Part shown: in pieces, positions 21,169 through 64,000 of the stretch
How positions within the stretch are numbered: the stretch's first letter is position 1
Layout of the letters: every line of letters starts with the position of its first letter
Assembly (NCBI RefSeq): GCF_009914755.1
Contig: NC_060929.1
DNA: 64,000 bases
Source of the DNA: the human T2T-CHM13v2.0 reference genome, Homo sapiens
Direction: 5' to 3' (one strand)
The notes under the pieces: model-generated
Seen by the model: only the letters and a program-made list of their open reading frames with translations
What the model was told of the DNA's origin: nothing
Databases searched by the model: none
Made by a program: the position numbers and the translations under genes

Positions 21169-21240
21169 CTGGCGCTCCGGGCTGTAAGCGCCGGTCGCGG
21201 CTGTGTCGGTCGCCGCTGCTCCCGCTCCTGCTGGGAGAGG
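21165..21240 (+). other. ZFP2: ZFP2 non-coding exon 1 (start approximate)
   Basis: Strong donor AGG|GTGAGT at 21241 inside the CpG island, just after the ZNF143 motif. Confidence 0.75.
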
Positions 21241-23551: not shown

Positions 23552-23844
23552 CATATTAACTGTAAAATATTGTTACTTAGGCATAACTTGGCTGGGAATG
23601 TGTTAAGTTTATGAATTAAAGAAATGACATCCTGGTATATTGAGACATATTGTGCAAGAATATGTCATGTCTCTCTGTCTTTCGTCTTTGTATAGCTAAA
23701 TAGGCATAATGAAGTGAACTTAATACATGAAAATCATTTTCTTTATGTAGCTACTATCCAGGTCTTATTTAGTTTATTTATAGGTATTTTCATTGTTGCT
23801 GTTGCAGGAGTCTTGTTTCTCATGGCTTCTTTCCCTTCCCTCAG

Positions 23845-23941
23845 CTCTGCCTCCTTTGGCTTCTGTCCCTCCCCAAGGAAGAACCCCACAGGAAGGAAGG
23901 AGAAGGCAATGGCTGCTTGGCCTCTGCCATTGGGAGCTCGG
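23845..23941 (+). other. ZFP2: Putative ZFP2 initiator exon (ATG 23909, encodes MAAWPLPLGAR, phase 0)
   Basis: Acceptor ttcccttccctcag (AG 23843-23844); strong Kozak gcaATGG; 33 coding nt; donor CGG|GTGAGC at 23942. Typical pre-KRAB exon. Confidence 0.65.
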
Positions 23942-37853: not shown

Positions 37854-38003
<150 letters not shown>

Positions 38004-38251: not shown

Positions 38252-38341
38252 GAAATCACCTTTCCAAACCCAATGGGACTTCCCAGCTGGAACGAGAACT
38301 GAGTCTGATGCAAAAAGAACCGCCTGAGGGTGGCTTTCGAG
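38252..38341 (+). other. ZFP2: ZFP2 KRAB-B exon, open frame: (G)NHLSKPNGTSQLERELSLMQKEPPEGGFR
   Basis: Acceptor ctctcctcttaagcag; donor GAG|GTAAGT at 38342; 90 nt, phase 1-1; KRAB-B-like SKP..SQLE motif. Confidence 0.85.
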
Positions 38342-41093: not shown

Positions 41094-41832
41094 CTAATAT
41101 GTAGGCTCACCGAATTGTCATTGAACATGTTTTTCTTTACATTCCCTGACTACGACATTGCTTGCTGGAGTAAGTACTTAAATATTTGTTGAGTGAATAT
41201 TTAATGACATCAATTAGAATTTTCATAAATCTGGTGAAAATATAAATTTGAATTTATGAAATTCATATCAATACAGATTGGATAATTATTGGGATGAATG
41301 AATGAATGGGCAGGGCAAAACAGCAAAGGTGGGACCCTCAGGACAATAACATAGTGAGGGGGCCAAGGATGCTCTGGTGAAGGTGAGTGGTCCAAGGAGG
41401 AGGAGAGGGCCCAGCAGAGAACATGGTCGAAGGGAGAGAGGAGAGTCAAGGTAGAGTATGACAGTGCCAAGTAGGGAATGAAAATGCCTGTTGCATTTGG
41501 TGATGAGGGAGTGGCCTGGGACCCAGGGAAGAGCCCATTTAGTGCTGAGAGAAATACGCTGTGGGCAGAAAAGTGAAGAGGAAGCAAGCAAGTGAAGACT
41601 TTTAAGTACAGACTGTCGTTTCAACAAGGTCAGCTTCTAAGGAAAAGGAAGAAAGAGTAAGAACTCAGAAGAAGCCTGTGGTTTGTTTTTTAACAAGGAA
41701 AAGACTTGAGTGTATCTGAAAGAGCAGAGAGGTGTCCATTGCAGTGGGAGAAACTAAAGATAGGCGAAAGTTGAATGGAAAGGAGCCCATAGAACATGAT
41801 GATTTGCAAACTCCAGATCTTGTTCTTTCCAG

Positions 41833-41979
41833 ATTTTCTTGGATATTGCTGTCAGATTAATCTGACATTTAGTCCTCTCATTATCCTGTCCCAGTCAAGG
41901 GGAGAAAAGTATTGACTGAGTGCTGTGCTCAGCTCTTCCACAGCCAGCATCTCACTTACTTGACACAAAACATCTATAG
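41833..41979 (+). other. ZFP2: Putative ZFP2 cassette exon, partly MIR-derived, with TGA (41913-41915) in the KRAB frame
   Basis: Acceptor tgttctttccag; donor TAG|GTAAGT at 41980. The 3' half and flank (~41908-42050) resemble antisense MIR. Confidence 0.65.
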
Positions 41980-42601
41980 GTAAGTACTGGTACTCCTCTT
42001 ACGGTGGAAGACATTGGCTCTGAAAGGTGAAATAACATGTCAGAATCTGAACACATATCTTTTGTTTTGTTGGTTTTTTACTTTGAGTTTAATGGTAATT
42101 CTCGCTTTCTTCCCTTGCCCTGCTGTGTTGTTATTTCCTAGTATATTTAGTAAAACTAGAAACTTCTGTATCCTGGCCTAATTTTCTTTTCAGCATCATT
42201 TCTTTTCTCTGTACTAAAGCTTTGTACAGTTGAAAGCATTGTTAGATTTTTGCTCCTGTTTTACAAAAGATGAATAGAAACTGCAAATCCAGAAGTGCTG
42301 TCCCTGGTGCCAGTATTTTCATTGTAAACTGACTAATTTTGAGAAAAGATAGAAATTTTTAGTAATGTGGAAAGCAGTGTCTTTTAGCCTCTCATCAATA
42401 GCAATTAGATTTAAATCATTTAATCATATTCAGTTATGAAGGAGATAAAAATTAAGAACATGAATAAAGTACTATCAAAGATTATGTGTAAAAATACAGT
42501 TGGGGATTCTATAATCTTTTTAGCTCTCCAGGAAGCCACCCTAACCATCCCTAAACATAGGAGCCTGCTGTCTGTGTTTCACACATGATTTTTAAAAATG
42601 T

Positions 42602-47200
<4,599 letters not shown>

Positions 47201-56420: not shown

Positions 56421-57968
<1,548 letters not shown>

Positions 57969-61948: not shown

Positions 61949-62492
61949 ACCAATTGGGTTTCTTTTGTGGAATTTCAGAATTAGGACAGAGGCACTTGGG
62001 TGTTAGAAGATCAAAGTACTAGATATGAGAGCTGATGCTGACATCTTGGGTCATGTGCAAATTTAATTGTAAGCAAAGGAATCCAACTGGGAGGAGTACT
62101 GGGAGTATAAGGGTCTGGGAGAGAGGGCCCTTCATTTCAGTGTCCGTTCTCAGGCAGAACTGAAGTTTCAGTAATATATGAGGATTTTTTGGTAACTTAA
62201 AGTACAGTACAGCCAGGCCTTGTGGCACCTGGGAATCACCAGCAGCCAAGGACGTGTGCATGCTCTCTCCCTCTGTCTTCGTCCCCCACCCCTCGCCACT
62301 GCTACCACCACCACATGGGCTCTGTTACTGCTTTGTCCATCCCCTCACTGGTGGTTGGATTCCTTTGTTTACGATTAAATTTGCACATGACCCAAGATGT
62401 CAGTATCAGCTCTCCTATCTAGTGAACTTTCATCTTCTAACATCCAAGTGTCTGTCCTAATTCTAAAATTCCACGAAAGAAAACCATTTGGT
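61949..62492. repeat. Long inverted repeat: arms 61949-62087 and 62354-62492, 266-bp spacer
   Basis: Hand alignment of 139-bp arms: 10 substitutions and two 2-bp indels (~90% identity). Confidence 0.92.
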
Positions 62493-64000
62493 CCAGATCA
62501 TCCTTTTAAGACAAGCCTCACAAGTCACCTTTTCTGGCTAAGTACCCATCCAGTCAGCTGGTGGGAGGAGGCCCGCCATGTGATCGCTGTCCATGCAGTC
62601 GGGCCGGTGTGCAGCAAACTGACAGATACGACCAATATGTCATGAGATAGTTACTGAGCACCTACTCAGTAGTTGCTAGTGATTTAGAGCTCAGAAGGAG
62701 CTCAAGGTAGGGAAGTCTGAAATAAACCAGGAGTTAGGATGCACTAGGGTAACTCTGAAGGTAGCAAGAAACACAGCGCCCTCTGGAACTATAGAGAATT
62801 GGGTGACCAGGGTATTTCCTCTATGGCTGGATCATCATTCAAAAGACTCAAATAGGGCCATTCCCTCCACTTGAGCTCTGTGAAATGGGCCTCTGGGCAT
62901 TTAAAGAGGTTACCAGTCAGGGTTCTTTAACGAATAAAAGTGGAGCTGCAGAATATGGTGCCAGTACCCCTCTCCTAGATACTGCATAGCTTCCAACTGC
63001 CTCTGGCTCCTGAAAAATATCACAACAGATCTGGAGGAGAAGGGTCTCTGAAAAATTTATGAATGCTTATAACTTAATTGAGGTAGGTTATTTCCCTGCC
63101 TATATACACATTGGCATGATCTGATGGTCTGTGGTCAAGAGACTCATAAGTAATTGGCCTGTGCTGCATGTTATTGTGACAAGGATGAGTAAGACCTTGT
63201 TCCTACTCATAGTGTAGTTCATTCAAGCAACTAACATTTATTGAGCTCCTAGCATAAGTCAGCTTCTATGAATTCCAGGGTAAATGACGCCTGCTCTCTG
63301 CTGTCAAGTAGCTCCTAGCACACAGTGCCATAAGAGTGAACTAGTTGGGTGAACAGAAGACGGGAGGAAATGAGAAGGTGCAGGGAAGAATAGGAGTAAT
63401 GGCAAGAGAGGCTAAGAGAGCATAGTGTATATTCAGGAAATTCTAAGAGATGTATGATTTAAGCATAGAGTAGAAGTCAAGAAGCAGGAAGAAATGAGGC
63501 TAAAGGAAGACCTTATTATATCACGCTTCAAGGGTCCCAACAGGGCTCAGCAAATGGACACCAGGAATTACTGGCACGTAGCCACTGTCCTGGGGAAGCG
63601 TAAGCAGACTGGTGATGGAGGTCTTGGTCAAATGTAAGTGTTCATTTGCATATCCATAGTTAATAGAGCAGAAGGGAAAGGGGTTCTCCAGACCACGTTT
63701 TAACCTCCTTTCTCCGAGGAGACTGGTTCCTGATGAGAATCCTTGACAGAAGCGGGGGCTTCCTCAGTGAATACTCAGAACAATATAGTGTGTGAGTCCT
63801 GGCTAAAGTCAAAGGGTGTGTCAGGCTTCATATCAGAGGTTTCACTGCTTCTCTTCAGCTTGAATAGTTTTGTTTTTTAGTTGGCTGTGGAAGGGCACCT
63901 GTTAGGTACTCCTAACAGACTACAGCATCACCAGGACAAATGGGTCAGATAAATGAAGGTTTTATTACTGTTTTCAGTTCTGGAAGACTTGGGCCTTTGT

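What the first reader, a model, noticed from the sequence alone, without database searches (positions are those of the whole stretch)
41833..41979. MIR-derived stop-containing cassette exon could act as a KRAB on/off switch
Seen: a 147-nt candidate exon with strong sites lies between KRAB-B and the finger exon. In the KRAB frame it reads DFLGYCCQINLTFSPLIILSQSRGEKY* (TGA 41913-41915). Its donor falls in antisense-MIR-like sequence. Known: antisense MIRs are a recurrent source of exonised splice sites. Inference: inclusion turns the KRAB exons into a uORF or KRAB-only peptide (possibly an NMD target), leaving finger-only ZFP2 from ATG 56583, while skipping restores the fusion. One SINE exon could toggle repressor versus non-repressor with the same DNA-binding array.
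Basis: partly seen in the sequence, partly recalled or inferred. Interest (0 to 1): 0.7.

Follow-up and report, generated by a model that had tools for sequence, protein, structure and literature searches.

The report
Stop exon locking ZFP2's worn KRAB
An already annotated exon of the human ZFP2 gene puts a stop codon between the gene's repressor (KRAB) exons and its zinc fingers, and it likely works as a standing lock on a likely decaying repressor domain rather than as an on/off switch.

Summary
The exon is real: RefSeq ZFP2 exon 4, 147 nt, AG/GT, TGA at 41913-41915 in the KRAB frame; skipping it rejoins KRAB to the fingers in frame. RefSeq exon 1 has no ATG, so skipping alone gives only half a KRAB. 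I found the missing 11-codon start exon (23845-23941). Orangutan and macaque records join it to KRAB-A, KRAB-B and this exon as KRAB-only proteins. Against a switch: a published census lists ZFP2 among 15 genes with no transcript joining KRAB and fingers; the donor is the gene's strongest; the KRAB has lost KAP1-contact Leu21, carries a helix insertion and differs from macaque at a neutral-like rate (16 of 86). For a switch: 11 of 12 critical residues and the frame survive, and some chordate ZFP2-cluster protein has a KRAB. The exon adds no AUG, so it poisons only KRAB-bearing transcripts (stop 64 nt before the last junction, NMD predicted). MIR origin fits by recall only; no tool could test it. 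Skipping reads were not available. Verdict: likely an old poison exon locking a decaying KRAB; functional toggle about 10%.

The parts
21179..21240 (+). ZFP2 exon 1 (RefSeq); contains no ATG
   Evidence: annotation; ATG list
23845..23941 (+). Start exon absent from the RefSeq model: ATG 23909 in strong context, 11 codons (MAAWPLPLGAR), phase-0 donor GTGAGC, acceptor tract in the top 0.4% of AG sites
   Evidence: orangutan P0185 residues 1-11 match 11 of 11, macaque P0187 matches 23840-23938 at 76%
37854..37989 (+). KRAB-A exon (Pfam KRAB E 2.3e-18); Leu21->Ala, one-residue insertion in helix 3, Leu40->Pro in human (ZNF93 numbering); internal ATGs 37879, 37935, 37945, 37956
38252..38341 (+). 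Degenerate KRAB-B exon, 90 nt, one codon shorter than in the orangutan and macaque proteins; no Pfam match
41833..41979 (+). The finding: 147-nt exon (RefSeq exon 4), no AUG, stop codons in all three frames
41913..41915 (+). TGA ending the KRAB frame, ending 64 nt before the last exon junction (NMD predicted)
41977..41987 (+). Strong 5' splice site, 9 of 11 U1 matches
41915..42050 (-). Stretch resembling a MIR in antisense, containing the donor; boundaries approximate
   Evidence: recalled resemblance only; not shown by any search (negative)
56506..56582 (+). Open 25-codon stretch before the annotated start, the old KRAB-to-finger linker
   Evidence: gap-free and about as conserved as the part after the ATG in the 3 related proteins that cover it
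56583..57968 (+). Annotated finger-only ZFP2 CDS, 461 aa, 13 C2H2 fingers

Best explanation
The exon places a stop codon in the KRAB reading frame of ZFP2 and adds no start codon, so it likely acts as a mostly included, likely MIR-derived poison exon that locks off a likely decaying KRAB and leaves finger-only ZFP2 as the likely working protein. Shown: with the start exon at 23845-23941, inclusion gives a 113-aa KRAB-only ORF stopping 64 nt before the last junction; skipping gives a 573-aa (571 with the acceptor at 37860) KRAB-finger ORF; transcripts that lack the start and KRAB exons have the same two upstream AUGs with or without this exon. Inferred: KRAB-bearing mRNAs are mostly sent to NMD or make an unstable KRAB-only peptide; the 461-aa protein comes mainly from transcripts that skip the KRAB-side exons (2 upstream AUGs, against 8 in the RefSeq form); any rare skip product would recruit KAP1 weakly. 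Whether the exon caused the KRAB's decay or was tolerated after it is unknown.
For: Frame and isoform table. The published KZFP census lists this KRAB (hg19 span 20,098 nt against 20,102 in the window) with status 'no transcript', defined as no suitable transcript with both domains, for 15 genes including ZFP2. All 3 near-identical KRAB records among the 6 hits of 38 candidates lack fingers; 2 of them (orangutan, macaque) run into this exon and stop in it. The donor is the gene's strongest. [quoted passage not shown] KRAB-A departs from 54 reference KRAB-A boxes at Leu21 (Leu in 94%, Ala in 0), by an insertion (0 of 54), at Arg30 and at Leu40 (Pro in 0); the three primate copies rank 54-56 of 57 on a profile built from the references. 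Leu21 is a required KAP1 contact and position 40 prefers aliphatics (PMC9753469). Human-macaque differences over start and KRAB exons are 16 of 86, against about 12 expected if neutral. Human and the two other primates end the peptide differently, which implies a 1-nt shift, so the 147-nt in-frame length is likely incidental.
Against: 11 of the 12 KAP1-critical residues are kept in all three primates (0 of 12 vary against 6 of 33 others, Fisher p 0.14). No stop or frameshift lies in the start exon, KRAB-A, KRAB-B or linker, and the indels seen are in frame. KRAB-A alone (5 of 45 against macaque, 2 of 45 against orangutan) is slightly below the neutral expectation and does not settle constraint. 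The neutral rates rest on recalled genome-wide divergences of 6.5% and 3.1%. The profile ranking is biased because the references trained it. A 54-member Atlas cluster named ZFP2 has at least one KRAB-bearing member. ZFP2 has a mutually exclusive exon event in TCGA data and a three-exon cluster in annotation, so this region is alternatively spliced. The acceptor is only moderate. The protein database returned no full-length ZFP2 orthologue at all, so the absence of a fused form is weak evidence. MIR origin and inclusion level are untested.
Confidence: 0.6

Rival explanations
1. Regulated switch: tissue-specific skipping, together with the start exon, makes a full KRAB-ZFP2 repressor, while inclusion leaves the finger-only form.
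For: Frame open from ATG 23909 through the fingers, 573 aa. Strong start context and acceptor of the start exon. 11 of 12 critical residues kept. Linker before ATG 56583 conserved without gaps in 3 of 3 related proteins that cover it: 14 of 24, 10 of 17 and 21 of 25 identical. KRAB-bearing member in a ZFP2-named cluster. Precedent in ZNF71.
Against: No annotated fused transcript. No fused record among 6 hits of 38 candidates. Strongest donor of the gene. Leu21Ala, helix insertion, Leu40Pro and neutral-like divergence.
Confidence: 0.12
2. Dosage control: inclusion is regulated and tunes ZFP2 mRNA level or translation through uORF-triggered NMD; the KRAB exons matter only as a uORF, not as a domain.
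For: The stop meets the NMD rule in human (64 nt) and, assuming the same donor, by about 60 nt in orangutan and macaque. Alternative splicing of ZFP2 internal exons is reported. TE-exonising NMD targets are common (bioRxiv 10.64898/2026.10.22.760879).
Against: KRAB-bearing RefSeq-type mRNAs already carry a 3-codon uORF and 8 upstream AUGs with or without this exon. No regulation data found. The exon peptide diverges at a neutral-like rate, 3 of 23 against macaque.
Confidence: 0.16
3. The 113-aa KRAB-only peptide is itself a functional product, a KAP1 adaptor or decoy like KRAB-only proteins.
For: The ORF is annotated in two other primates; its ATG is the first in the transcript.
Against: NMD predicted; impaired KRAB; C-terminal tail differs by frame between human and the other two primates; these records may be projections or predictions rather than observed proteins.
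Confidence: 0.07
4. The exon is not MIR-derived but arose from ordinary intron or another old repeat; the lock reading stands and only the origin label is wrong.
For: No tool showed MIR homology. The donor does not read like the one major MIR donor given in PMC2394776 (CTA/gtaagt; here TAG/gtaagt). The acceptor lies outside the MIR-like stretch.
Against: The by-eye recalled resemblance runs collinearly over about 130 nt across the donor, and none of the tools used holds a MIR model.
Confidence: 0.05

Closest known systems
KRAB zinc finger genes with a genomic KRAB but no fused transcript (15 genes incl. ZFP2, ZNF134, ZNF239, ZNF345; PMC10547255 Table S2, rows seen)
   Same: ZFP2 is itself on this list; same KRAB-finger pair
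   Different: The list gives no cause; here the blocking exon and the start exon are located
Exonised antisense MIRs (PMC2394776, passages; FGB MIR exon PMC4615370, passages)
   Same: Strong donor, UTR placement, in-frame stop, old element
   Different: MIR identity not tested here; the donor seems not to be the major MIR donor; the acceptor would be non-MIR
ZNF71 KRAB / KRAB-less isoforms (PMC8038441, passages); ZNF268a (PMC6953056, search listing only; its KRAB-less isoform is recalled)
   Same: One gene, same finger array, with or without KRAB; ZNF71 also has an 11-codon start exon before the KRAB exon
   Different: ZNF71 loses the KRAB by skipping the KRAB exon and both forms are quantified in RNA-seq; here an inserted stop exon blocks it and the fused form is unobserved
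TE-derived NMD poison exons such as DDX49-MIRc/AluSp and SETDB1-AluSx3 (bioRxiv 10.64898/2026.10.22.760879, passages)
   Same: TE exon with a premature stop, conserved in primates, truncating to an N-terminal domain
   Different: Here the exon is in the selected RefSeq transcript and a second ORF lies wholly downstream in the last exon

Membership tests
Exonised MIR | Homology to a MIR consensus overlapping the exon, antisense | not testable with these tools
   No repeat library; indirect tries negative; resemblance recalled only
Exonised MIR | Used as an internal exon with canonical splice sites | tested here: met
   AG/GT, RefSeq exon, orangutan and macaque protein records spliced into it
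Exonised MIR | Donor is the major MIR 5' splice site (CTA/gtaagt) | tested here: inconclusive
   Donor reads TAG/gtaagt against the site in PMC2394776; by recall it maps to a second MIR donor
Cassette poison exon | In-frame stop more than 50-55 nt upstream of the last junction | tested here: met
   64 nt
Cassette poison exon | Both inclusion and skipping occur | tested here: inconclusive
   A mutually exclusive event 6|7 between SpliceSeq exons 3 and 8 is reported but cannot be mapped to window coordinates; no KRAB-finger transcript is annotated
Cassette poison exon | Inclusion isoform rises on NMD inhibition | not testable with these tools
   No expression data
Canonical KAP1-recruiting KRAB zinc finger protein | Start exon, KRAB-A, KRAB-B and finger exon in one open frame | tested here: met
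   573-aa ORF when this exon is skipped
Canonical KAP1-recruiting KRAB zinc finger protein | All 12 silencing-critical KRAB-A residues intact | tested here: not met
   11 of 12; Leu21->Ala, plus an insertion in helix 3 and Leu40->Pro
Canonical KAP1-recruiting KRAB zinc finger protein | Expressed transcript joining KRAB and fingers | tested here: inconclusive
   None annotated in human; none among 6 hits; at least one KRAB-bearing member of unknown species in a ZFP2-named cluster
Canonical KAP1-recruiting KRAB zinc finger protein | KAP1 binding and repression | not testable with these tools
   No KAP1 sequence was available as a partner

The most novel reading that the evidence does not exclude
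A single SINE-derived exon gates a hidden 571-573-aa KRAB-ZFP2: in some tissue or stage the exon is skipped while the start exon at 23845-23941 is used, the KRAB still recruits KAP1, and the same 13-finger array flips between repressor and non-repressor.
Probability: 0.1. Interest if true: 0.6.

Novelty: new member of a known kind. Interest (0 to 1): 0.27.

Why it matters
As a lock, it is a clear worked example of how a roughly 105-million-year-old KRAB zinc finger gene is uncoupled from its repressor domain, and it explains why ZFP2 is listed as having no KRAB-finger transcript. Locating the start exon and the exact junction makes the question testable in public RNA-seq in minutes. If the switch held, a transposon exon would be controlling the KRAB system that polices transposons, and ZFP2 functional data made with the 461-aa clone would be incomplete.

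Tried and rejected
MIR test by self-comparison of 4 query stretches against the window: no hit beyond self at meaningful E; five weak-hit regions read by eye showed no MIR. One recalled MIR motif: 2 matches, chance level. Rfam: 4 chance-level matches. Plasmid and phage records: none and one 43-nt match at E 0.6. Orthologue search with the linker in the 5.8-billion set: 0 of 9 candidates; with the whole finger exon: swamped by paralogues, none of the 120 listed above 66% identity. The RING_CBP-p300 match of the exon peptide (E 0.002, below cut-off) is rejected as chance. P0188, named 'zinc finger protein 2 homolog' (wombat, KRAB plus fingers), is not counted as an orthologue: it is not among the top 8 linker matches. 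The other 13 of 14 candidate ATG-donor pairs in intron 1 were dropped because no protein record matched them. A near-cognate start in exon 1 in the KRAB frame was looked for by eye in the translation and not seen. The exon's 18-nt palindrome is rejected as functional: the macaque protein implies non-compensatory changes. No KRAB-KAP1 complex was predicted, as no KAP1 sequence was at hand. The two main MIR-exon papers (Krull 2007, Lin 2009) are not held, so whether they list ZFP2 is unknown. Supplements of PMC6071210, PMC6995393 and PMC2879366 could not be read and may hold exon coordinates or TE labels; those of PMC9712015, PMC10020087 and PMC2394776 had no ZFP2 row in the files held.

Full report
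Observation. Exon 41833-41979 is 147 nt with canonical AG/GT ends and is exon 4 of RefSeq ZFP2. In the frame of the KRAB exons it stops at TGA 41913-41915, with a second TGA at 41961; skipping it leaves one open frame from the KRAB exons into the finger exon. The 136-nt exon at 37854 scores as a Pfam KRAB box (E 2.3e-18) and the last exon has 13 C2H2 fingers. The donor matches 9 of 11 bases of the U1 5' end read from the window's RNU1-39P copy, a score reached by 6 of 2051 GT sites; the acceptor is moderate, 11 of 15 pyrimidines.

The start problem. RefSeq exon 1 has no ATG, and the first ATG in the KRAB frame is 37935, after the DV and EEW motifs; skipping in the RefSeq structure would therefore give a 535-aa protein with half a KRAB-A. 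A scan of intron 1 for ATG-to-phase-0-donor stretches gave 14 candidates. One, 23909-23941, encodes 11 codons in a strong context inside a 97-nt exon with an all-pyrimidine acceptor tract. ZNF71 has the same 11-codon start exon layout (PMC8038441, passages). A search with KRAB-A returned 6 proteins of 38 candidates. Orangutan 'ZFP2 isoform 5' (P0185, 115 aa) and macaque 'isoform X7' (P0187, 137 aa) map piece by piece to this start exon, KRAB-A, KRAB-B and the finding's exon, and stop in it. The third close record, P0184, reads from KRAB-A into the intron. None has fingers. These are annotation records and, by my recall of how such names arise, may be predictions or projections from human, so they are not independent proof of splicing. 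They do show that the exon sequence and a stop in it are shared by apes and an Old World monkey.

What inclusion does. Of the 16 exon combinations computed, start+KRAB-A+KRAB-B+fingers gives 573 aa (571 with the acceptor at 37860). Adding the exon cuts this to 113 aa, ending 64 nt before the last junction, which meets the NMD rule. The exon contains no AUG, so exon 1 joined to the finger exon has 2 upstream AUGs with or without it, against 8 in the RefSeq form. The exon therefore harms only KRAB-bearing transcripts. That is the anatomy of a selective poison exon. That NMD actually acts, and which isoform makes most protein, are inferred.

Is it skipped? The human KZFP census lists ZFP2 (age 105 My) with status 'no transcript', meaning no suitable transcript with both domains, one of 15 such rows (PMC10547255, passages and supplement rows). 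MIR exons as a class have the strongest donors, highest inclusion and most constitutive use (PMC2394776, passages). On the other side, TCGA SpliceSeq holds a mutually exclusive event for ZFP2, exons 6|7 between 3 and 8 (PMC6995393, table passage; PMC9712015, passage), and ZFP2 has an annotated three-exon cluster (PMC6071210, passage). I could not map these to the window. If exon 8 is the finger exon, they describe transcripts that bypass two upstream exons and swap one pre-finger exon for another, which is not a KRAB-finger fusion. In the ESM Atlas a 461-aa ZFP2 cluster (53 members) has no KRAB member, while a 509-aa cluster named ZFP2 (54 members) drops out when KRAB-bearing clusters are skipped, so at least one member, of unknown species and unproven orthology, has a KRAB. 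The 25 codons before ATG 56583 are gap-free and about as conserved as those after it in the 3 related proteins that cover them (P0002, P0017, P0019; P0001 starts at the ATG). The ancestral gene was thus very likely a normal KRAB zinc finger gene.

Would the KRAB work? It has Ala for the contact residue Leu21, an extra residue in helix 3 seen in 0 of 54 references, and in human Pro at position 40, where aliphatics form the interface core. Human and macaque differ at 16 of 86 residues over start and KRAB exons (neutral expectation about 12 from a recalled 6.5% divergence); human and orangutan at 4 of 86 (expected about 6). KRAB-A alone is less clear: 5 of 45, P 0.02 under strong constraint and 0.39 under neutrality; the 12 key sites do not vary, but Fisher p is 0.14. 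No frameshift or stop has hit the KRAB side. The reading is relaxed constraint and weak KAP1 binding, not proven loss.

MIR origin. No tool here holds repeat models. Five indirect tries were negative and carry little weight. From memory, about 41915-42050 lines up with an antisense MIR that supplies the donor, though not the major donor printed in PMC2394776. I treat this as likely and untested.

Literature. Searches for ZFP2 with KRAB, with neighbouring genes, with uORF, with exon and splicing, and with SpliceSeq (listings, with passages read in PMC6481875, PMC9140126 and those cited above) found no paper on this exon. The library lacks most subscription papers, and the two main MIR-exon studies were not held. 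TE-derived NMD exons (bioRxiv 10.64898/2026.10.22.760879, passages; no ZFP2 mention in the main text) and KRAB versus KRAB-less isoforms are known kinds.

Verdict. A real, annotated exon. Best reading: an old poison exon that locks a decaying KRAB (0.6). Dosage control 0.16, regulated switch 0.12 (about 0.1 that it also yields a working repressor), functional KRAB-only peptide 0.07. New member of a known kind; interest 0.27.

Noticed in passing
window 23845-23941 +: Start exon missing from the RefSeq model; its last codon is Arg (Gly in macaque) where Gln is commonest in KRAB genes (38 of 56 proteins), and its donor matches U1 at only 6 of 11, which may favour skipping.
   Followed up: yes
window 37854 vs 37860: Tandem acceptors 6 nt apart at KRAB-A; RefSeq and both primate records use the upstream one, adding two residues, and the tract is poor (8 of 15 pyrimidines).
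   Followed up: partly
window 41895: A possible internal acceptor (12 of 15 pyrimidines) would give an 85-nt version of the exon sharing the same donor.
   Followed up: no
window 41850-41867: Perfect 18-nt palindrome inside the exon, one of only a few non-TA palindromes of 16 nt or more in the window; the macaque protein implies it is broken there.
   Followed up: partly
window about 41560-41780: Purine-rich stretch just upstream of the exon that resembles an L2 remnant by recall; untested.
   Followed up: no
window 56567-56635: Two upstream AUGs just before the main start: one overlapping out-of-frame 22-codon ORF and one 2-codon ORF ending 2 nt before ATG 56583.
   Followed up: no
window 61950-62200 (-) and 62250-62520 (+): Two closely similar stretches in inverted orientation, about 150 nt, seen when reading.
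   Followed up: no
window 42532-42754, 45494-45693, 45944/46009-46113: Other exon-like stretches with good splice sites between this exon and the finger exon; candidates for the mutually exclusive partner.
   Followed up: no
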